Positions 6,680 to 60,287 of a stretch of DNA of 64,000 nt are shown here, one piece after another (positions within the stretch are counted from its first letter, which is position 1; each line of letters opens with the position of its first letter). The notes under the pieces were generated by a model. It did no database searches, was not told the origin of the DNA, and saw nothing but the letters and a program-made list of their open reading frames with translations. A program made the translations under genes and the position numbers. The DNA lies in the NCBI GenBank assembly GCA_043815665.1, contig JBDRIT010000025.1, positions 67,487 to 131,486 on the forward strand, in the 5' to 3' direction. Source of the DNA: Pseudomonadota bacterium (GTDB taxonomy: Bacteria > Myxococcota_A > UBA9042 > CAIXZC01).

Positions 6680-6804
6680 CGTCATCCTGAGCAAACGAGT
6701 GAAACGAGTGCGTCGAAGGCCCCCCCCCGTTGGTGCGCAGAGCGATCTCTGCCGAGGAACCGGGAGGTCCTTCGACTCGGGCTACGCCCTCGCTCAGGAT
6801 GACG
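6680..6804. repeat. inverted-repeat-bounded intergenic element (13-bp perfect IR cgtcatcctgagc / gctcaggatgacg) containing a tandem aacgagtg x2 and a C9 homopolymer
   Basis: Arms at 6680-6692 and 6792-6804. ~125 nt. Lies between two co-directional minus-strand genes (terminator/promoter position). Confidence 0.35.
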
Positions 6805-6815
6805 GGAAGGCGTGG

Positions 6816-8036
6816 TTAGAACGTCAGGCCCAGGGTCACCCCACCGCCGTCGGGCAGGGCCATGGGCCGGATGCGGGTGGTCATGACCTCCGTGTCTGCG
6901 GGCGCGGAGGTCATGTCGATGATCAGGGTGACGAGGCCCGCGGTGGCGGCGGCGGCGCCGACGCCGTAGAGGACGTAGCCGGCGACGGCCTTCGGCAGGA
7001 CCGAGGAATCGAACTCGCTGTTGTACCGCTGCTGGTTCTCCACTGGCGCCGGATCGCCGGCGACGCCGTCGGGGTACTTCTTCTTCAGATCGTTGTTGTC
7101 CCTGGCGGCGATGCCGTGGAGCGCTGCGCCGGTGGCCACCATGGCCACGCCTCCGCCCAGGAGGGTCCACTTCCACCACTGGTTCCTGGCCGCCGGAGGC
7201 TTCCTCTCCGTCCCAGGATCGTCCACCAGGGGCTTCTTCACGGGGACCTCGGGGCGCTTGATCCGGGGCTCACGGGTGGTCGTACGACCGGCCAGTACCT
7301 CCACCTCGTCCTCCCAGGCCGGCAGCTCCGAGAGCGTCACCTTGATGTGGTACTTCCCGGACTTCATGCGCGCCTTGTAGGGGATCTTCCCGACCTCCTT
7401 GCCGCTCACGTAGACCTTCGCCCCCATCTCAGACCCCAGGATTGCGAGGACGCCGTCGGTCTCCTCCTCCAGGGTCACCGAGAGCCGCACCTCGCCCTTC
7501 TTGTCTGGCACGGAGATCGGCTTGACGGCTGCCTTGAAGCCTGGCTTGGAGAGGCGGATCTGGTGCTCGCCGGGCTCGAACCACCAGGTGAGCGGGCACT
7601 CGTGGATCGGCGCGCCCTCGTCCGTGGAGACCGCAACCATGGTGCCGAAGGGGATGCAGGTGATGGTCACGCGACGGAACTCGCCGAGGAGCTTCGCCTC
7701 GACCTCGTCCATCCAGCCCTCGGCCTTCTCGTTGTGGGGCCCGGAGATCCGGTACCGGCTCAGGTAGTACCACGCGTCGGGGTACCGCTCGAGCTTCTTG
7801 TAGGCCAGCCCCAGGTTCAGCTGCACCGCCGGGCGGTACTTGTCCGGGAGGGCCTCGTAGACCGAGATCCAGATCTCGACGGCCTTGGCGAGCTCACCAT
7901 TCTTGGCCAGCTTCGCGGCGTCGTTGAACTGCGCGACGGCCTCATCCTTGGTCTGGGCCATCGCATCCGGGGCGACCAGGCCCACGAGGAGACCAAAGAG
8001 GAGGGCGGCGAGGGTCAGCATCCGGGGTGCGCTCAT
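6816..8036 (-). CDS. secreted protein with TPR-like N-terminus, PEGA-like middle and C-terminal TM
   Basis: Signal peptide MSAPRMLTLAALLFGLLVGLVAPDAMAQ. Stretches such as KVYVSGKEVGKIPYKARMKSGKYHIKVT resemble PEGA domains. A C-terminal hydrophobic segment is present. Confidence 0.7.
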   Translation of the reverse strand: MSAPRMLTLAALLFGLLVGLVAPDAMAQTKDEAVAQFNDAAKLAKNGELAKAVEIWISVYEALPDKYRPAVQLNLGLAYKKLERYPDAWYYLSRYRISGPHNEKAEGWMDEVEAKLLGEFRRVTITCIPFGTMVAVSTDEGAPIHECPLTWWFEPGEHQIRLSKPGFKAAVKPISVPDKKGEVRLSVTLEEETDGVLAILGSEMGAKVYVSGKEVGKIPYKARMKSGKYHIKVTLSELPAWEDEVEVLAGRTTTREPRIKRPEVPVKKPLVDDPGTERKPPAARNQWWKWTLLGGGVAMVATGAALHGIAARDNNDLKKKYPDGVAGDPAPVENQQRYNSEFDSSVLPKAVAGYVLYGVGAAAATAGLVTLIIDMTSAPADTEVMTTRIRPMALPDGGGVTLGLTF

Positions 8037-53039: not shown

Positions 53040-53060
53040 TTCCGACCCGCCTCACAATCT

Positions 53061-53525
53061 CTACCGTGAAACGACCCGCGGTGGTGCGGACCTCGACGCC
53101 GAACCGGGCCAGGACGTCCCGGATCGGCCCCTGGACCGTTCGAAGGGGGTGTGGACGTCGAAGCGGCCTTCCGATCGGGCGCTCGCGGCGATCACGAGCA
53201 TCCTGGGCCCGAGCACCACCGCGCCGCCACCTCCCCTCCGTCTGTGCACCGGGACCCCGTCGGCCTCTGCCACATGGGTGTTGACCACGCAACCGATGTC
53301 CTGGGAACGGCCCACCACGAGCCCGGTGCGCGCGCTCAAACACGTCCGCGCGAAGACCCGCCCCCCGTCGTCGACCGAGACCCGGAATCCCCCGTCGTAC
53401 AAGGCCGAAAGCGCATCGGACACGTGGCTCCCAGGGCCCGCCAGCGCGGCGTCTCCGGGGTACGGACTCCCGGCATCCCTGGGCAGGAGATCGGCGACCG
53501 CAAGGGTCCGATCCATGGGCTCCAT
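53061..53525 (-). CDS. hypothetical protein
   Basis: GAGGAG RBS before ATG. MEPMDRTLAV... 154 aa. The longer ORF-track version (to 53981) overlaps hupB and the HU promoter and is rejected. Confidence 0.4.
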   Translation of the reverse strand: MEPMDRTLAVADLLPRDAGSPYPGDAALAGPGSHVSDALSALYDGGFRVSVDDGGRVFARTCLSARTGLVVGRSQDIGCVVNTHVAEADGVPVHRRRGGGGAVVLGPRMLVIAASARSEGRFDVHTPFERSRGRSGTSWPGSASRSAPPRVVSR

Positions 53526-53711: not shown

Positions 53712-53975
53712 ATGACCAAGGCCGAGCTGATCAGCGCCGTGAGCGGAGACTACACCAAGAAGGATGCCGAGGCCGTCGTGAACGCGGTCTTCGAGGTCAT
53801 CAAGGGCACCCTGGCCACGGACGGGACCTTCTCGTTCCCGGGCTTCGGGACGTTCAAGGTCAAGACCCGCGCCGCCCGTAAGGGCCGGAACCCGCGGACC
53901 GGCGCCGAGATCACCATCAAGGCGAGCAAGACCGTGACCTTCAAGCCCGCGCCGAGCTTCAAGGGCGACCTCTAG
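53712..53975 (+). CDS. hup: HU family DNA-binding protein
   Basis: [11 protein letters not shown]...[26 protein letters not shown] is the canonical HU/IHF fold signature. GGAAGGGGG RBS. Confidence 0.95.
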
Positions 53976-54151
53976 TCCCAAAACAAGCGAAGATACCGTA
54001 GCGAGGCGGTCGAGATGGCGGTGCTGACAAGGATAGCGAACGAAGGCGATGCCGAGTATCGTCGAGTTCGAGTGAGCATGGCGAACGGTCTATCCGCCGT
54101 TCAGCACTGGCAGATCGGCTGCCGCAGTAGGCAGATGCGCTTGTTTTGGGG
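53976..54151. repeat. inverted-repeat-bounded intergenic element (13-bp perfect terminal IR cccaaaacaagcg / cgcttgttttggg); candidate structured ncRNA (6S-like size) or MITE-like element
   Basis: IR arms at 53977-53989 and 54138-54150 close a ~176-nt unit with lower GC and internal hairpins. Exactly fills the gap between convergent hup and lemA. Confidence 0.35.
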
Positions 54152-54778
54152 CTAAAACCCCACCTTCGGCGGCTTCTTCGTGGCCTCCTTCTCGGCCTCG
54201 TCCAGCTCGTAGTATGGCGCCTCCTCGAGGTCGGTCATGCCAGCGAAGAACCGCCCGAAGAAGGAGCGACGGTACGCGTTCAGGGCCCGGGCAGCCTCGT
54301 TGTAGCGCTTGCGGGCCACTGCGATGCGGTTCTCCGTGCCCTCGATGGAGTCCTGGAGCTTGAGGAAGGACTGGTTGGCCTTGAGGTCAGGGTACTTCTC
54401 CTTCAGGAGGAGGAGCCGGGACAGCGCCCCATCCAGGCCCGAGGCGGCCTTGATCTTGTCCGTCATGGAGCCGCCCTTGGCCGCGGAGAAGTACGCCTTC
54501 CTCGCGTCGGCGAGGTGGGTGAAGACCTCCTTCTCGTGCTTCGCGTAGCCCTTCACGGTCTCCACGAGGTTGTCCAGGAGGTCCAGGCGTCGCTTGAGCT
54601 GGTTCTCCACCTCGCTCCAGCCCTCCTTGACCTGTTCGTCGTAGGTGACGCCCTTGTTGTACATCCGCACGAACCAGAGCCCTGCGATCAGGGCGATGAT
54701 CAGGAGAATGCCGACGGGCAGCAGGCAACCAAGCTTCCAGTTGAAGCCGGCGCGGCCGGGTGTGGAATCGTCGTTCAT
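54152..54778 (-). CDS. LemA family protein
   Basis: N-terminal TM then the LemA domain (VTYDEQVKEGWSEVENQLKRRLDLLDNLVETVKGYAKHEKEVF...). Confidence 0.9.
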   Translation of the reverse strand: MNDDSTPGRAGFNWKLGCLLPVGILLIIALIAGLWFVRMYNKGVTYDEQVKEGWSEVENQLKRRLDLLDNLVETVKGYAKHEKEVFTHLADARKAYFSAAKGGSMTDKIKAASGLDGALSRLLLLKEKYPDLKANQSFLKLQDSIEGTENRIAVARKRYNEAARALNAYRRSFFGRFFAGMTDLEEAPYYELDEAEKEATKKPPKVGF

Positions 54779-54787
54779 TGGGAGCTC

Positions 54788-56524
54788 CTATAGCTTGAGA
54801 CCGGTGAATGGGACGGTCACCGCCCCGTTGTCTGCACCGCCGAGGATCCACGTCCCCGTGAACGCGCCCATCAGCGCATCGGCTTCCAGATCCTTGTCGT
54901 CATCGCTCAGCGCCGCGGCGCCGGAGACCACGAGCGCCTGCTCGGCGCCGACGATGGCGGCGAGGGCCAGGTAGTCACCCAGGGCGGCGTAGACCGCATC
55001 GTCACAGTCTTCGACGAGCTCGCTCATGGGGCGGTTGATGCAGGTCAGGGTGGACTGCTTCACGCCGGCGAGCATGGCCGCGCAGTCGAAGTGTCCGGTG
55101 AAGAGCTCCACCATGGAGGTCGCGCCGTCCGCGACGTCCGGGAGGACGACGTTCACGAAGGCGAAGAGCAGGAGCCGGCCCGGGTTGACGTGGAGCTCGA
55201 ACTCATGGAGGAGGAGCTCGTTTGCGGAGGTCACCTCGCAGACGATGTCGCTGTCACCAGCCTTGAGCCATGCCTCACCGGTCTCGAACGCATCCTCCAG
55301 GAACAGGGCATCGCCGAGCTCCAGGGACTTGATGTCCAGGGTGGCGACGCAGGCTCCACCGAACGCGCCGCCCTCGATGGCCAGGGAGGCGCCGAAGATC
55401 GGGTCCGTGAGCAGATCCTGCAGGGGCGCGGCGACGTCCTCGAGACCGACGGCCCAGGCCGGGGGGAGATGCGCCGCCGCCCACACGTCCACGGACTCGT
55501 TGATCTCGACGCTCACGTCATCGCATTGCTCCGGCAGGACGCCATCGTCCATCCAGACGAGGATCCCGTCCAGCACCGTGGTCTTCACGTCCCCGGGGAC
55601 CGTGTCCAGGCCCGCCTCGAGGGCAGCGGACCACCCCGGTGCGTGGCCCGTGGTCAAGACCCCGAAGTCCGGCGCCATGGTCAGCTCGTAGCTCCCCGTC
55701 GGGCTGATCTGCAGGGGACCGAGGGTGACCGCCGCGACGGTCTCCTTCCCGGCGAAGACGCTGATCCCCTCAGTGCATCCGGCGCCCACCGGGGAATCTC
55801 CGTCGTCATAGCCGACCACCATGATGGTGGTCCCCGGGCCCGCCACCGCGTCCTCGATGAGGAGCTGGTTCTCCTCCGCACCCAGGGTGTAGAGAGCCAT
55901 GTCCGGGGACGGGGAGACCGGCTCCGCGGCGGCGCAGAGGAGGCCCGACTGGGAGACATAGACCCCGAAGTGGTCGATCTTCTCCGGGTCGGTCACGTCC
56001 CCGCCCACCGTGAGGGTGAGGAGGATCGTGCCCGTGGCGTGGGCCCGGACATCGAGGACCACGTCGATCCCCGGCGCGCAGGGGGTGTCGATGCGCAGGT
56101 CATAGAGGACCGGCGCCTGGGCGCCCGTGGAGAGGTCCACCGCGGCCACGCCGAAGCCGTCGGTCTCCGCGGCCGCCTGGAGGATCTGCCCGTCGCCGTC
56201 GCCGGTGAGGGCGAAGGTCACGACCTCGCCCTCGGGGGTGTCCCCGGTGACGGGGTCGTAGATCCGAGCTTGGAGCACGTACTCCCGGTCCACCTCCAGC
56301 ACCAGGGGGGAGGCGCCGTTGAACAACTCCAGAATGAGCTCGGCACCACAGTGACCGCCCGGTTCGAGGTCCTCGAGATCCGCCGAGATCGTCACGTCGG
56401 GGGTGGTCGTCTCACCCTGGGCGACATCCTCGGTGCCATGAGTCCCACCGCCGCCGCCCGTGCAACCGACCACCAAAATCACAGCGATGATGCCAACCCA
56501 TCCGGCTCGCTGCTGCTGCACCAT
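54788..56524 (-). CDS. large hypothetical lipoprotein
   Basis: MVQQQRAGWVGIIAVILVVGC lipobox. 578 aa. Acidic, beta-rich. Confidence 0.6.
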   Translation of the reverse strand: MVQQQRAGWVGIIAVILVVGCTGGGGGTHGTEDVAQGETTTPDVTISADLEDLEPGGHCGAELILELFNGASPLVLEVDREYVLQARIYDPVTGDTPEGEVVTFALTGDGDGQILQAAAETDGFGVAAVDLSTGAQAPVLYDLRIDTPCAPGIDVVLDVRAHATGTILLTLTVGGDVTDPEKIDHFGVYVSQSGLLCAAAEPVSPSPDMALYTLGAEENQLLIEDAVAGPGTTIMVVGYDDGDSPVGAGCTEGISVFAGKETVAAVTLGPLQISPTGSYELTMAPDFGVLTTGHAPGWSAALEAGLDTVPGDVKTTVLDGILVWMDDGVLPEQCDDVSVEINESVDVWAAAHLPPAWAVGLEDVAAPLQDLLTDPIFGASLAIEGGAFGGACVATLDIKSLELGDALFLEDAFETGEAWLKAGDSDIVCEVTSANELLLHEFELHVNPGRLLLFAFVNVVLPDVADGATSMVELFTGHFDCAAMLAGVKQSTLTCINRPMSELVEDCDDAVYAALGDYLALAAIVGAEQALVVSGAAALSDDDKDLEADALMGAFTGTWILGGADNGAVTVPFTGLKL

Positions 56525-56666
56525 CTCGATCCCTCCTTGAAACAAGGCTTGGATACCATACACGAACTCCACCTTCCAATCGTTCATTTTCTCCATGCAT
56601 TTCAGGAAAATATGTGCTAACTTCCCGCTTCCGCGAGGGAGAGGCCCATTGAATTCGGAGACGCCG

Positions 56667-57041
56667 ATGGTACGGATCGCGTATGTTGCCCAGCACAGGC
56701 GGGGGCTCAGGGAGCTGCTCGAGCAGCTCGCCGAGACCGGCTACATGGTCTACCGAATCGATCCCACGGTGCTGGCCTACAAGAAACTCCGAGACAACCC
56801 GCCGGACATCATCATCGCCGACGCCACCCTCAGGGAGGGGCACGTCAAGGAGGTGGTGGAGTCCGTGAGCAGCTCCCGCATCACCAAGGAGATCCCCATC
56901 TGTGTCGTGGGCTGCCGCTTGGAGGTCCTCGACCGGATGCGGAAGGCCGCCCCCAACGCGAAGGTCGTCCTCTCCGGCGAAGTGACCCGAAAGATGCTCG
57001 TGGAGATCGTGAAGCAGCTCGCGACGGTCCTGCAGCACTAA
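56667..57041 (+). CDS. single-domain receiver-like (CheY-fold) protein with degenerate acidic pocket
   Basis: Flavodoxin-like alpha/beta pattern with DIIIAD at the phospho-acceptor position. No N-terminal DD pair (IAYVAQHRR). Confidence 0.55.
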   Translation: MVRIAYVAQHRRGLRELLEQLAETGYMVYRIDPTVLAYKKLRDNPPDIIIADATLREGHVKEVVESVSSSRITKEIPICVVGCRLEVLDRMRKAAPNAKVVLSGEVTRKMLVEIVKQLATVLQH

Positions 57042-57044
57042 GGG

Positions 57045-57218
57045 CCTGCGGCGAAATAAGTGGATCGCACCGAGAGCGCCGAAGCGCCCTGGCCGGAAGG
57101 CGCGGAGGTGCACGCCGACCGCAGGCGTACTTGAGGTACGTCGAGGGAGGTGGGGGCCCCGCAACGCACCGGGCGGGGCGGCAGCGGGGCTCGAATGCAC
57201 CACTTGTTTCGCCGCAGG
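57045..57218. repeat. inverted-repeat-bounded intergenic element (19-22-bp terminal IR cctgcggcgaaataagtgg / ccacttgtttcgccgcagg); candidate structured ncRNA or MITE-like element
   Basis: Arms at 57045-57063 and 57200-57218 with one G.U position. ~174 nt. Followed by the ggtcc-taa-ggacc hairpin at 57217-57229. Sits between convergent genes. Confidence 0.35.
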
Positions 57219-57309
57219 TCCTAAGGACCCGTTCCGAAACAACCTGCTCGTTCGGCTTCCGCTGCATCCCGCCCTGCTGCGTTGCTCTCCCTGCGACGCT
57301 GATCCGACA

Positions 57310-60265
57310 TCAGTCCCCGACGAGGATCACCACGTCGTCCAGGTAGATCGTCCCGAAGGCCTGGTTGGTCAACTCGAACCTGAAGGTATGCGCGCCCGCG
57401 CCCATCGTCGTGACCTCGGCGGACAGGTGGTGCCAGGTGTTGTCGCCGCAGACGGAGCTGGAGGGGACCGCCAGGAGGGTCCCGCCGTCACCCTTGACGT
57501 TCAGGTTCCAGTTCGGCGTGATGCCGGCCGGACAGAGGAGCATGAAGGAGATGTAGGACTCCGTGCCGCTCGGGAGGACCGCGCTGAACTCCATCCAGCC
57601 ATCCAACTTGTACTTGTTGTACCGGAAGGAGTGGGTCGGGGAGTTGGCGAACTCCGGTGTCCCGGAGGCGTCATAGACGAGCCAACCGGGGTTGAACGCC
57701 GGCCACGAGTCGGAGTAGCTGAACTTTGCGGAGGTGACGCCCGCCGCCTCGTCGTCGAAGTTGGCCTGGAACAAAGGCGTCATGGAGAGGCACAGGGTGT
57801 TCCCGTCGCCGGGGTCCGCACAGATCTCCAGCGCGCCGCACTCCGATGAGGTCTGGCAGCAGGTGTCGCAGATGCACTGGTGGAGCTCCTCGTTGCAGGT
57901 CTCGCTGCTCAGACAGGTCCCGCAGGTGCCACCGCAGCCGTCGGCGCCGCACTCGTAGCCGCCGCCATCGCCGTCATCGCAGACGGGCACGCAGCAGCTG
58001 CCGTCGATGCAGGGCAGTCCTCCGCAATCGTCCTCCGTGGTGCAGCACCCGGGGATCGGGTCGAAGAGACAGGCGGACCCGTCCTCGGTGCAGGTGTTCA
58101 GGGTGCACTCATCGCCGTCGTCGCAGGGGAGCGCGGGCGCAGGGGCGTGGGCGCAGCCGTCCACGGGCTCGCAGGAGTCGACGGTGCAGGGCTCCCCGTC
58201 GTCGCAATCGATGGGCGCGCCGCCGGTGCACTCGCCCGCGGCGCAGGTCTCCCCGGTGGTGCAGACGTCCACGTCGTCGCAGGTCCCGCCGTCATTGATC
58301 CCCGTGGGCACGCAGTCCCCGGTCCCCGGATCACAGGCCAGCTCGTAGCAGGTCCCGCCGGGGCCGCACTCCACCGCGGAGTCGGGATCGTTCGCGCAGG
58401 TGTACGGGAAGGAGGCGATGTCGCATTTCGGGGTGCCGTTGCAGAGATCCCCGTCGTCCGTGCAGTCCCCGGCCACGAGACACTCGCAGAGAAACACCCC
58501 GTGCTGGCACGCCCCCGCCGCGTCGCATTGGGCGTTCGGGTAGCAGGCGCCCGCCTCACCTGCGGAGGCGTCGGGGTAGGAGCACGCGGTCCCCAGCAGG
58601 GCAGGGCCGTGGATGCAGGCTCCGGTGAGCGGGTTGCAGGAGTCGACGGTGCAGTCGTTCTGATCGTCGCAGTCCACGGTGAGCACCCCTGCGCAGCCGC
58701 CGGACGCGGTGCAGGCGTCCACGTCGGTGCAGGCGTCCCCGTCGTCACAGGTCTCTCCGGTGAGGGCCACGTTGGCGCAGGCCCCGGTGAGCGCGGTGCA
58801 GGAGTCCGCGGTGCAGGCATTCAAGTCGTTGCAGTCCTTGGCCCCACCTGCACAGCCCCCCACCCCGTCACAGACGTCGACCTCGGTGCAGGGATCGCTG
58901 TCGTCGCAGGGCTCCCCGTCGAGCGCGGCGGCGTCGTGCTCGCATTCGCCGGAGATCGGATCGCAGGAGTCCGCGGTGCAGCCGTTGCCGTCGCCGCACT
59001 CCGTCTTGTCGCCCGGGACGCACGCGACGCCCACACAGATGGCGCTCCCCGTGCACGCGTCCCCGTCATCGCAGCCTCCGCCGGGGTTGGCCGCCTGCTG
59101 CTCACAGACGCCGGTCCCTGCCTGGCACTGCCAGGTGGAGCACTGGGTGTCGGCCGGGCACTCCACGGGCGCGCCCGCATCCACGCACATCCCCTCCTGG
59201 CAGACCCTTCCTCCGTCGCAGAGGTCGACGTCCAGGCAGTCCGCGTCCGCCGCACATTCGCCGACGCACTGAGCGGCCTCGGCGTCGCAGAGGAACTTCC
59301 CCTCGAATCCTTCGATGCACTCCTGGGACTCGGTGAACAGGCCCTCGTTGCACTGGCGGTAGGTGGTCGCGCCGGTGCAGAGGATCCCTTCGTCCACCAC
59401 ATGGGTGGCGAGGTCCTCGATGAGGATCACGCAGCCCCCTGCGGTCTCCGCGCAGACGGCCTGGGCGCCGCCGTAGGTCCAGGCGCAGGTCCCGCTCGCG
59501 CACATGGAGCCCATGAAGCAGGCCTCCCCCGCGGCGCAGATCGCCTCGTCGATCTCGCCGTCGCAGTCGTCGTCCAGGCTGTTGCACAGCTCGTCAACCG
59601 GAGTGCAAGAGGAGCCGCTGCCGCCACCGAGGCCGCCGACGAAGAGGGAGAAGTGGGTCGTGGGGATGCTCACGGTGCCCTTCACGAGGTTCACCGAGGC
59701 CGGGAGCTTCGTCCAGTCCTCCTCGAGGCTCAGGGGCTGCCGGAAGCCGCCCAGCTGATCCCAGGTCACGTCCTCGGGCAGCTCCGTGGGGAGGTCGTCG
59801 AGGAGCGGCAGGATGAGGAGCACCGGCTTGTTGAACACCGCGCCCTCGTTCGCGACGTCGATGCGCCACACCGCGGTGAGCGCCACGACGCCTTCCGGCG
59901 GCGCAGCGCCGCCCTGCACGCCGATGAAGACGTTGATCTCCACCGGAAACGCGTCGGGGGGGACGACCAGCGTCACGCCGCCGTCGAAGAGGAACGTGCC
60001 CCCCGCGGGGCCGATGTCCCACGCCTCCTTCGAGACACCGGTGATGTCCTCCGGCGGGGCGGTGTCTTCCCCGTCCGCATCTCCAGTGACGTCCAGGTCC
60101 TCGTCGGTGGTGTCCGGCGGGGTGGTCAGGTCCTCCTCAGCGGTGTCCGGTGCGATGAGGATCTTCTTCTCGGCCGTGACCACACAGGACTGCGCAGCCA
60201 GGGCCACCAGGGCCAGGAACAGGGCGATCCGGCTCATCCCATGGAACGCTGTTGTCGCTCTCATT
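57310..60265 (-). CDS. large secreted Cys-rich protein with Dictyostelium-type CTDC repeats (CxDGDxCTxDxC), one CGADGCGGTCGTC unit and a C-terminal lectin/LamG-like domain
   Basis: Signal peptide MRATTAFHGMSRIALFLALVALAAQSC with GGAGAG RBS. More than 12 CDDGDACT...C repeats. Confidence 0.8.
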
Positions 60266-60287
60266 CGTCTCTCCACAGTCGCAGGGT

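What the first reader, a model, noticed from the sequence alone, without database searches (positions are those of the whole stretch)
57045..57229. Second IR-bounded ~174-nt intergenic element (19-22-bp arms) between convergent genes, followed by a ggtcc-taa-ggacc hairpin
cctgcggcgaaataagtgg (57045-57063) pairs with ccacttgtttcgccgcagg (57200-57218), with one A/G difference that is G.U-compatible in RNA. The interior is GC-rich with runs of G (gggaggtgggggcccc).

The architecture matches the hup-lemA element, but the sequences differ. Either there are two distinct structured RNAs, or two members of a TIR-defined MITE-like class.
Basis: seen in the sequence. Interest (0 to 1): 0.55.

Follow-up and report, generated by a model that had tools for sequence, protein, structure and literature searches.

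The report
Small non-autonomous transposon (MITE) insertion
The 180-base hairpin-forming sequence is a miniature, non-coding "jumping gene" that landed on the TAA stop codon of a gene in this GC-rich uncultured bacterium; this is a well-known kind of selfish DNA, here from a family that has no name yet.

Summary
Window 57042-57221 is a 180-nt element with 22-nt terminal inverted repeats (20/22 complementary). It is flanked by a direct TAA/TAA repeat and folds into one long rod (-124 to -128 kcal/mol, z about -9 to -11).

It is not a conserved structured RNA. There is no Rfam match, and at least nine distinct orthologous loci from related bacteria (RR-like protein 85-96% identical) have only 0-29 nt where the window has 268 nt.

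It is a MITE, for three reasons:
- **Shared ends:** the first 24 nt are identical to a 112-nt multicopy element in a Rokubacteria MAG and a metagenome contig, each copy flanked by TAA or TTA.
- **Second copy:** the same MAG (locus-tag prefix ABIK09) holds another copy, seen only as protein. It interrupts a PRK-like kinase gene at the junction predicted from the element end plus TTA, and an intact paralogue exists.
- **Third, decayed copy:** the "ggtcc-taa-ggacc hairpin" is the element end, the duplicated TAA and the end of a decayed, inverted partial copy (57225-57298).

The GGGCCTG termini and the 3-bp TWA duplication resemble Tourist/PIF-Harbinger and IS5-type elements, but no parent transposase was found. 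The hup-lemA element is also MITE-like, with a TA duplication, but is not detectably homologous.

Ordinary biology: a new member of a known kind.

The parts
57039..57041 (+). Left copy of the 3-bp target-site duplication (TAA). It also serves as the stop codon of the upstream RR-like gene.
   Evidence: Relatives end this gene with TGA or TAG and lack the element.
57042..57063 (+). Left terminal inverted repeat, GGGCCTGCGGCGAAATAAGTGG.
   Evidence: 57042-57065 is identical over 24 nt to the left end of the Rokubacteria MITE copies in L010, L015 and L017; in L010 the exact match runs 27 nt because it includes the TAA.
57064..57199 (+). Non-coding interior. It is largely self-complementary, so the whole element folds as a rod with an apical 8-bp stem and a 3-nt loop. 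Unpaired bases are 38 purines to 8 pyrimidines on the + strand.
   Evidence: No Rfam match.
57200..57221 (+). Right terminal inverted repeat, CCACTTGTTTCGCCGCAGGTCC. Its reverse complement is GGACCTGCGGCGAAACAAGTGG, matching the left repeat at 20 of 22 positions.
57222..57224 (+). Right copy of the 3-bp target-site duplication (TAA).
57225..57298 (-). Degenerate, truncated second copy in inverted orientation. It starts with the terminus-like GGACCCGTTCCGAAACAA and accounts for most of the remaining extra intergenic DNA.
   Evidence: It aligns with the reverse complement of the element's right half with score 49; shuffles give 26.3 +/- 4.2, maximum 40. blastn gives 69.6% over 69 nt, E = 1e-5. 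See also direct repeat D2.
56667..57041 (+). Upstream gene: a 124-aa receiver-domain-like protein, MFH1529643.1 (ABIK09_02790).
57310..60276 (-). Downstream convergent gene: a 988-aa Cys-rich repeat protein.
   Evidence: The C-terminus is orthologous to the relatives' gene.
53975..54152 (+). Sister element between hup and lemA: a 178-nt rod with termini G[T/C]CCCAAAACAAGCG, flanked by TA (53973-53974 and 54153-54154). It is a different family.
   Evidence: It sits exactly between two synteny blocks.

Best explanation

Inferred mechanism: a DDE transposase encoded elsewhere binds the two 22-bp terminal inverted repeats, excises the element and inserts it at a TWA (TAA/TTA) target through a 3-bp staggered cut. 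Repair of that cut produces the flanking TAA/TAA. The transposase is most likely of the IS5 / PIF-Harbinger type, judged from the GGGCCTG termini, the subterminal GCGAAAYAAG motif and the 3-bp TWA duplication.

In this 69% G+C genome TAA and TTA are about 5- to 13-fold rarer than base composition predicts, and they are concentrated at stop codons and in spacers. The element therefore landed on the stop codon of the RR-like gene, and the duplication supplies that gene's stop codon. An earlier copy had used the same spot and has since decayed.

What is shown:
- the termini and the duplication;
- the empty orthologous sites;
- a second insertion in the same genome with the predicted junction (seen as protein only);
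- the same termini and duplication on a multicopy element in another phylum.

What is inferred:
- the transposase family;
- the cut-and-paste mechanism;
- that the element is read through as a 3' UTR hairpin, which may stop or stabilise the convergent transcripts.
For: 1. Termini and duplication: 22-nt terminal repeats matching at 20 of 22 positions, with a flanking TAA/TAA.

2. Empty site: in L001, L018, L019, L004, L005 and L021-L026 the same two convergent genes are 0-29 nt apart, against 268 nt in the window. The RR-like protein in those loci is 85-96% identical to the window's. DNA homology stops at 57039 and resumes at about 57297-57323, depending on the relative.

3. Same termini on a proven multicopy element: four copies of a 112-nt element lie in four different contexts (L009, L010, L015 from one Rokubacteria MAG; L017 from a metagenome). 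The 132-column alignment that includes their unrelated flanks averages 91% column identity, and the element itself is nearly identical between copies. L010, L015 and L017 begin GGGCCTGCGGCGAAATAAGTGGAC, while L009 lacks the first two G. Each copy is flanked by TAA/TAA or TTA/TTA.

4. Second copy in the source genome: protein P0013 (MFH1532589.1, ABIK09_17835, cut off at the end of a 13.8-kb contig) begins with 46 aa that are 44/46 identical to the translation of window 57178-57041 on the - strand. The window's own proteins carry the same ABIK09 locus-tag prefix.

5. Second empty site: homology between P0013 and an intact paralogue, P0046 (ABIK09_16015), starts exactly at the residue after the element.

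6. Decayed inverted partial copy abutting the right TAA.

7. Target scarcity: 32 TAA and 19 TTA in 64 kb, against about 247 expected for each. By a rough ORF call, 21 of these 51 sites lie in stop codons or spacers, which together make up less than 10% of the window.

8. Not a known RNA: no Rfam family and no terminator-like or promoter-like site.

9. Family resemblance: the termini resemble PIF/Harbinger repeats (GGGCCCGTTTGTTT, GGTCCTGTTTG..., with TTA duplications; PMC6327408). They also resemble IS5 of E. coli (GGAAGGTGCGAATAAG / GGAAGGTGCGAACAAG with a flanking CTAG). The element fits the published definition of bacterial MITEs (PMC3184786).
Against: - No autonomous partner (a transposase gene between the same termini) was found in the window, in the fetched loci, or in plasmid, viral, genome or metagenome scans.
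- Only two full copies and one remnant of this particular element are documented. The second copy is known only as a protein translation; its DNA could not be fetched.
- Exact-match scans of species-representative genomes and JGI metagenomes found no further copy with this interior.
- The strong purine bias of unpaired positions on the strand that is sense to the upstream gene (38:8) is not predicted by a purely selfish DNA element. It could reflect RNA-level selection.
Confidence: 0.88

Rival explanations
1. A structured non-coding RNA or 3' UTR element that is selected for its rod-like fold, for example a stabiliser or bidirectional terminator between the convergent genes. On this reading the inverted termini are simply the closing helix.
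For: The + strand fold is very stable (z -9 to -11) and about 24 kcal/mol better than the - strand. Unpaired bases are 38 purines to 8 pyrimidines on the strand sense to the upstream gene, and the hup-lemA element shows the same bias at 40:10. Both elements have an apical 8-bp stem with a YGA loop and share AGGCG...CGTCGAG.
Against: No Rfam family matches. The element is absent from every orthologous locus examined. G.U versus A.C counts across the rod are not asymmetric: 6 vs 3 here and 4 vs 4 in the hup-lemA element. There is no T-run terminator. The second copy sits inside a coding region in another context. The termini and the duplication are shared with an element whose interior is unrelated. 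This reading could still be true as a secondary, exapted role of a MITE.
Confidence: 0.05
2. A hairpin that arose in place, by local duplication and inversion of the intergenic spacer, without any transposition.
For: The neighbouring partial inverted copy (57225-57298) shows that local palindromic sequence exists here.
Against: This does not explain the 24-27-nt identity of the terminus (with its TAA) to elements in another phylum. It does not explain the second copy at an unrelated locus in the same MAG. It does not explain the exact TAA/TAA flanks.
Confidence: 0.03
3. An assembly or binning artefact of the metagenome-assembled genome, with a repeat wrongly spliced into this spacer.
For: The source is a MAG. 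The contig carrying the other copy ends inside the element. The sister element lies at a synteny break.
Against: Both flanks of this element are collinear with the relatives' locus, so nothing is mis-joined here. The flanking TAA duplication and the intact reading frames are as expected for a genuine insertion.
Confidence: 0.02

Closest known systems
Unnamed 112-nt MITE family of a Rokubacteria MAG (CAVPSB01 contigs; loci L009, L010, L015) and of metagenome contig Ga0214473_10294575 (L017)
   Same: The first 24 nt are identical (GGGCCTGCGGCGAAATAAGTGGAC; the window has T in place of the final C). Both have a 3-bp TAA/TTA duplication, insert next to gene ends and fold as hairpins.
   Different: The interior is unrelated, and the length is 112 nt rather than 180 nt. 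Its right terminus differs (GGGCCTGCCGCGAAATAACTG). It shows no purine bias in unpaired positions. The host phylum is different.
Tourist-like MITEs and their PIF/Harbinger parents (eukaryotes)
   Same: Both have a 3-bp TTA/TAA duplication and termini beginning GG[G/T][C/Y]C[T/Y]G. Examples are ZmPIFa GGGCCCGTTTGTTT and Harbinger GGTCCTGTTTG (PMC6327408). Both are small, non-coding and hairpin-forming.
   Different: The host here is a bacterium. Beyond the first 7 nt the termini differ. No PIF-like transposase or Myb-like ORF1 partner was identified.
IS5 of E. coli and the IS5 family
   Same: Both have terminal GG and a subterminal GCGAA(A)TAAG. The two ends differ by the same T/C position (AATAAG vs AACAAG). 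Both prefer a YTAR-type target, CTAG or CTAA. From established knowledge, IS5-family transposases are related to PIF/Harbinger, and some IS5 subgroups make 2-4-bp duplications.
   Different: IS5 is 1.2 kb and encodes its own transposase. From established knowledge it makes a 4-bp duplication. The termini are only about 14 of 22 alignable, and that needs gaps. No IS5-family gene was linked to this element.
ERIC/IRU and Correia (NEMIS) elements of enterobacteria and Neisseria
   Same: These are whole-length imperfect palindromes of 100-170 bp. They sit in intergenic regions, often at the 3' ends of genes, have TA-containing duplications, are co-transcribed and fold as long RNA hairpins (PMC3184786; the TA duplication is from established knowledge).
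   Different: There is no sequence similarity. They have a 2-bp TA duplication, which is closer to the hup-lemA element than to this one. Their copy numbers are far higher.
REP/REPIN elements
   Same: They are G+C-rich extragenic palindromes, often found between convergent genes (PMC3184786).
   Different: From established knowledge, REPs are 20-40 bp, lack target duplications and are mobilised by RAYT (IS200/IS605-like) transposases. Here the element has 22-bp terminal inverted repeats and a 3-bp duplication.

Membership tests
Bacterial MITE (definition as in PMC3184786) | Terminal inverted repeats flank a core sequence. | tested here: met
   22-nt termini matching at 20 of 22 positions.
Bacterial MITE | A direct target-site duplication flanks the termini. 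| tested here: met
   TAA at 57039-57041 and at 57222-57224. Elements sharing the terminus have TAA or TTA.
Bacterial MITE | Small size (usually under 200-400 bp) and no transposase gene. | tested here: met
   The element is 180 bp. Its translations found only the spurious N-terminus of P0013 and low-complexity matches.
Bacterial MITE | More than one copy in the genome, in different contexts. | tested here: met
   A second copy in the same MAG interrupts a PRK-like kinase gene, and a decayed copy lies at 57225-57298. The total copy number could not be counted.
Bacterial MITE | Presence/absence polymorphism, i.e. an empty site in related genomes. | tested here: met
   At least nine distinct orthologous loci lack it. 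The intact paralogue P0046 lacks the second copy.
Bacterial MITE | An autonomous element with the same termini that supplies the transposase. | tested here: inconclusive
   None was found in the window, 36 loci, plasmids, viral contigs or exact-match genome and metagenome scans. The rest of the source MAG could not be read.
IS5 / PIF-Harbinger-derived element (Tourist-like) | A 3-bp TWA target-site duplication. | tested here: met
   TAA here; TAA or TTA in the four copies that share the terminus. Reference values are in PMC6327408.
IS5 / PIF-Harbinger-derived element (Tourist-like) | Termini of the GG[G/T]CC[T/C]G type (PIF/Harbinger), or GG...GCGAAYAAG (IS5). | tested here: met
   GGGCCTGCGGCGAAATAAG compared with Table 2 of PMC6327408 and with IS5 ends read from an E. 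coli record. The similarity is short, so this is suggestive only.
IS5 / PIF-Harbinger-derived element (Tourist-like) | Mobilised by a DDE transposase of that superfamily. | not testable with these tools
   This needs the full MAG or an experiment.
Known structured RNA family (Rfam 15) | A covariance-model match at or near the gathering score. | tested here: not met
   No match at gathering score in the whole window. With the E-value threshold, only chance-level hits at E of 0.38 or higher.
Intrinsic (Rho-independent) terminator | A G+C-rich hairpin followed by a T-run. | tested here: not met
   No terminator-like site in 56400-57500 on either strand.
Same family as the hup-lemA element (53975-54152) | Alignable sequence, or shared termini and duplication. 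| tested here: not met
   The global alignment scores 49 against 39.8 +/- 6.7 for shuffles. The termini differ in length and register, and the duplication is TA rather than TAA. Only the AAAYAAG motif, the size, the rod fold and the purine bias are shared.

The most novel reading that the evidence does not exclude
The two ~180-nt rods in this window may be more than selfish DNA. Both have unpaired positions that are about 80% purine on the strand sense to the upstream gene. Both have an 8-bp apical stem with a YGA loop. Both sit exactly on stop codons between convergent genes. They could be members of a class of mobile, RNA-level '3'-end cassettes': MITEs selected, or orientation-filtered, to act as transcript-end hairpins in a G+C-rich lineage whose convergent genes otherwise overlap or abut.

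A related possibility is that their termini point to a bacterial Tourist-like system. In that system one IS5/PIF-type transposase, shared across phyla, would mobilise unrelated hairpin cargos.
Probability: 0.15. Interest if true: 0.5.

Novelty: new member of a known kind. Interest (0 to 1): 0.25.

Why it matters
The main value is for annotation. This spacer is an insertion, not a regulatory RNA gene, and the upstream gene's TAA stop codon lies in the target-site duplication.

It also gives a clean example of how a TWA-targeting element is channelled onto stop codons when TAA and TTA are 5- to 13-fold depleted in a high-G+C genome. The same element can also knock out a gene when it hits a rare TTA inside codons, as in the kinase paralogue.

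The identity of the termini with a Rokubacteria MITE, and their resemblance to Tourist/PIF and IS5 ends, gives a handle for finding the responsible transposase.

Finally, such repeats break MAG contigs, and the sister element at a synteny break could mark a mis-join or a real rearrangement. That matters for using this assembly.

Tried and rejected
- **Rfam:** nothing at gathering score over the whole window, and only chance-level hits (microRNA and snoRNA models) at permissive E-value over 56900-57400.
- **Promoter/terminator scan:** nothing.
- **Exact 19-mer terminus scan of 185,579 species-representative genomes:** seven loci. Three are real (one Rokubacteria MAG). Four are chance matches in unrelated sequence (at least one intergenic) without a second arm or a duplication.
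- **Same scan of JGI metagenomes:** one real Rokubacteria-type copy and one chance hit.
- **Relaxed terminus scan of viral contigs:** one chance hit.
- **Limit of these scans:** they cannot see copies with a changed terminus. The second copy in the source MAG has such a change: Y to F in the translation implies a base change within the AAATAAG motif of the terminus, which would break the 19-mer.
- **blastn of the element against 72,556 plasmids:** only short chance matches, and none to the termini.
- **blastn of both elements against all fetched loci (about 228 kb):** no further copies.
- **HMMER search of one element frame against 1.84 billion representatives:** only low-complexity hits.
- **Fetching the DNA of the second copy or of its intact paralogue:** failed, because neither product is on record in the contig index.
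- **Other kinds considered and rejected:**
  - An integron attC site: I saw no R/L core motifs on inspection, and the genes here are convergent rather than arranged as a cassette array.
  - IS200/IS605-type or REP elements: these lack terminal inverted repeats with a duplication.
  - A retron msd was considered, but the presence of a reverse transcriptase gene was not tested.
- **Homology between the two elements of the window:** rejected as not significant.
- **G.U versus A.C asymmetry as a sign of RNA selection:** not found.
- **Literature:** the IS-family review I wanted (Siguier et al. 2014) is not held.

Full report
**1. The observation**

The arms are at the stated coordinates: 57045-57063 and 57200-57218. 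They have one U.G-compatible position, T57057 opposite G57206.

The repeat is in fact longer. The repeat finder reports 26-nt arms, 57038-57063 and 57200-57225, at 88% complementarity. Read symmetrically, the element is 57042-57221 (180 nt):
- left terminus GGGCCTGCGGCGAAATAAGTGG;
- right terminus with reverse complement GGACCTGCGGCGAAACAAGTGG, matching at 20 of 22 positions;
- a direct repeat TAA on each side, at 57039-57041 and 57222-57224.

The left TAA is the stop codon of the upstream gene, a 124-aa receiver-like protein at 56667-57041. The downstream gene, a 988-aa Cys-rich repeat protein, converges on the element and ends at 57310.

The whole element, not just its ends, is self-complementary. 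The + strand folds into a single rod of -127.6 kcal/mol; shuffles give -87.5 +/- 4.4, so z = -9.2. The - strand gives -101.4 kcal/mol, z = -5.2.

I scanned the window for short direct repeats that directly flank inverted termini matching at 13 or more of 16 positions. Only this element and the hup-lemA element were found, against 0.4 hits per shuffled window.

**2. It is an insertion, not a conserved feature**

The RR-like protein has 12 homologues at 67-96% identity, and more within a 90% cluster. I fetched the DNA around several of them:
- L001-L003 (96% identical protein);
- L018 (95%);
- L019 and L020 (89%);
- L004 (88%);
- L005-L007 (85%);
- L021-L026 (93%).

In all of these loci the same two convergent genes are separated by only 0-29 nt. 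In the window the gap is 268 nt. The alignment shows the relatives' sequence running ...CAGCAC-TGA/TAG, then a few bases, then the stop of the convergent gene. DNA homology to the window stops at 57039 and resumes at about 57297-57323, depending on the relative.

A structured RNA gene that was inherited and selected would be expected at this position in such close relatives, and it is not there. Rfam gives no match at gathering score anywhere in the 64-kb window, and only chance-level matches around the element. There is no T-run terminator and no sigma-70-like promoter.

**3. The termini belong to a mobile family**

An exact-match scan with the terminus (CCTGCGGCGAAAYAAGTGG) over one genome per species returned seven loci.
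- Four are isolated chance matches in unrelated sequence.
- Three come from a single Rokubacteria MAG.

The same scan of metagenome contigs returned one more real locus, L017, and one chance hit. Together L009, L010, L015 and L017 carry a 112-nt element in four different genomic contexts. The element is nearly identical between copies; the 132-column alignment that also includes the unrelated flanks averages 91% column identity.

L010, L015 and L017 begin GGGCCTGCGGCGAAATAAGTGGAC, identical to the window's element over the first 24 nt; L009 lacks the first two G of the terminus. In L010 the exact match to the window runs 27 nt, because it includes the TAA. Each copy is flanked by the same trinucleotide on both sides: TAA/TAA in L010, and TTA/TTA in L015, L017 and L009. 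The interiors are unrelated to the window's element.

In L015 a second, different small element follows in tandem and shares the TTA. Its termini are GGCGGTGTCAGGAAATAAGTGAAC / GGCGTCGTCAGAGAATAAGTGACC. They carry the same GAAATAAGTG block at the same distance from the tip.

So there is a set of short elements defined by these termini and a 3-bp TWA duplication, with interchangeable interiors. That is what is expected if one kind of transposase recognises the ends.

**4. More copies in the source genome**

There was one hit: P0013 (MFH1532589.1, 'ABIK09_17835, partial'). It lies at the end of a 13.8-kb contig.

Its first 46 residues are 44/46 identical to the translation of window 57178-57041 on the - strand. 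The rest is a PRK/uridine-kinase-like P-loop protein that is not encoded in the window.

Exact look-up shows that the window's own proteins (HU MFH1529640.1, LemA MFH1529641.1, ABIK09_02790 MFH1529643.1; contig of 235,696 nt) come from the same MAG, which NCBI labels 'Pseudomonadota bacterium'. The genome therefore holds a second copy.

A search with the kinase part found an intact 236-aa paralogue, or strain variant, in the same MAG: P0046, ABIK09_16015, 91% identical. Homology between the two starts exactly at Tyr47 of P0013, which is Tyr30 of P0046. Upstream, P0046 has its natural N-terminus (...GGRVFLFDG), while P0013 has element-derived sequence (...STFFAAGP).

The junction Gly-Pro-Tyr can be encoded by GGC CCT TAY. 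That is the element end GGCCC, then TTA, then a pyrimidine. It is the junction predicted for an insertion at a TTA lying across a GGT-TAC (Gly-Tyr) codon pair. This gives a second filled/empty pair, and it shows that the element can also disrupt genes. It rests on protein sequence only, because the contig DNA could not be fetched.

That contig ends inside the element, which is typical of assembly breaks at repeats.

**5. The 'following hairpin' and the rest of the spacer**

After the right TAA the sequence GGACCCGTTCCGAAACAACC... resembles a terminus of the same element (direct repeat D2).

The stretch 57226-57298 aligns with the reverse complement of the element's right half. The score is 49, against 26.3 +/- 4.2 (maximum 40) for shuffles. 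blastn gives 69.6% over 69 nt, E = 1e-5.

The spacer is therefore TAA-[intact element]-TAA-[decayed, truncated, inverted copy]. The palindrome ggtcc-taa-ggacc is simply two element tips facing each other across the shared duplication. Repeated use of one TAA fits a target-limited element, as does the tandem pair in L015.

**6. Why stop codons**

The window is 68.6% G+C. It has only 32 TAA and 19 TTA, against about 247 expected for each from base composition. By a rough ORF call, 21 of these 51 sites lie in stop codons or spacers, which together make up less than 10% of the sequence.

In this lineage convergent genes often abut or overlap at their stops, for example TTAG in L021. An element that needs TWA will therefore tend to land on stop codons. 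Here the duplication supplies a stop codon, so the insertion is harmless.

**7. Likely mechanism and family**

The published criteria for bacterial MITEs (PMC3184786) are met, apart from an identified autonomous partner:
- terminal inverted repeats around a core;
- a flanking duplication;
- under 200 bp;
- no transposase gene;
- a long stem-loop at the RNA level.

The 3-bp TTA/TAA duplication and termini starting GGGCCTG are those of Tourist-like MITEs and their PIF/Harbinger parents. Examples are ZmPIFa GGGCCCGTTTGTTT, Harbinger GGTCCTGTTTG..., and PePIF1 GGGYCYGTTTGG..., each with a 3-bp duplication, which is TTA for ZmPIFa and PePIF1 (PMC6327408). From established knowledge, the bacterial relatives of those transposases are the IS5 family.

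I read the ends of IS5 from an E. coli record: CTAG|GGAAGGTGCGAATAAG ... CTTGTTCGCACCTTCC. They share with this element the terminal GG, the subterminal GCGAA(A)TAAG, the same T/C difference between the two ends, and a YTAR-type target.

These resemblances are short. The transposase itself was not found in the window, the loci, plasmids or viral contigs. The family assignment is therefore an inference at roughly 60% confidence, while 'MITE' is at about 88-90%.

**8. Relation to the hup-lemA element**

That element (53975-54152) is also a rod of -89 kcal/mol, z = -7. Its termini are G[T/C]CCCAAAACAAGCG, and it is flanked by TA/TA. Each duplicated TA plus the terminal G/C of the element forms the TAG stop codon of hup on one side and of lemA on the other.

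It does not align significantly with the present element: score 49 against 39.8 +/- 6.7 for shuffles. Its termini are shorter and in a different register, and the duplication is 2 bp. It is best treated as a second MITE family.

The two elements do share some features:
- size (178 and 180 nt);
- an AAAYAAG block in the closing helix;
- an apical 8-bp stem with a YGA loop inside AGGCG...CGTCGAG;
- a marked purine excess at unpaired positions on the + strand, 38:8 and 40:10, against 17:11 and 19:17 in the Rokubacteria elements.

The purine excess explains the 24 kcal/mol advantage of the + strand. G.U versus A.C counts do not explain it (6 vs 3 and 4 vs 4). With two elements this could be chance or an intrinsic family trait. 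It is the only observation that hints at an RNA-level role, and I leave it as unexplained.

**9. Verdict**

The 'structured RNA' reading is rejected as the primary explanation, and the 'MITE-like' reading is accepted.

This is a new, unnamed member of a well-known kind of element. It has a tidy target-site story and cross-phylum sharing of termini. Interest is low to moderate.

Noticed in passing
window 53975-54152 (with TA at 53973-53974 and 54153-54154): The hup-lemA element sits exactly at a synteny breakpoint. Homology to relatives' hup block ends at 53975; in relatives hup is followed by pyrG and ftsK after an 86-nt spacer with a terminator. Homology to their lemA block starts at 54153; in relatives an MS-channel gene overlaps the lemA stop as TTAG. 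This is either a real rearrangement through a repeat or a mis-join in the MAG assembly.
   Followed up: partly
Protein P0013 (MFH1532589.1, ABIK09_17835), on another contig of the same MAG: A second copy of the element interrupts a PRK/uridine-kinase-like gene six positions into the domain profile, right before the P-loop (YSGAGKTT). An intact 91%-identical paralogue or strain variant (P0046, ABIK09_16015) exists. The element-encoded ...FFAAGP happens to mimic the beta-strand that normally precedes a P-loop.
   Followed up: partly
window 57042-57221 and 53975-54152: In both rods the unpaired bases are about 80% purine on the + strand (38:8 and 40:10), and opposed mismatches are almost all purine-purine. 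Rokubacteria MITEs with the same termini lack this bias. No explanation so far.
   Followed up: partly
window 6680-6804: A third intergenic inverted-repeat element with 30-nt arms, 73% complementary: CGTCATCCTGAGCAAACGAG...CTCGCTCAGGATGACG. It has a C8 run inside and lies upstream of the gene ending at 6816. It is unrelated in sequence to the other two elements.
   Followed up: no
L015 617-745: A different ~125-nt MITE lies in tandem with the Rokubacteria MITE and shares its TTA. Its termini carry the same GAAATAAGTG block at the same distance from the tip. This suggests a wider terminus-defined superfamily.
   Followed up: partly
L008 10365-10445: In the most distant orthologous locus fetched (76% identical protein), the spacer holds three direct repeats of about 15 nt. 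Two read caggtttgaaacct and the first lacks the leading 'ca' (gggtttgaaacct). The element is absent.
   Followed up: no
window 53056-53075: Relative to L027, the window lacks about 4 kb carrying the 2-oxoacid dehydrogenase E1 and E2 genes and part of the LplA-like gene. Homology jumps from L027 1378 to L027 5362.
   Followed up: no
L017 1140-1230 (- strand): One reading frame just upstream of the MITE in this metagenome contig translates to ...VRWLKRHPRFALHFIPGVDSG*. From memory this resembles the C-terminal region of IS630-type transposases. I did not check this with any tool.
   Followed up: no
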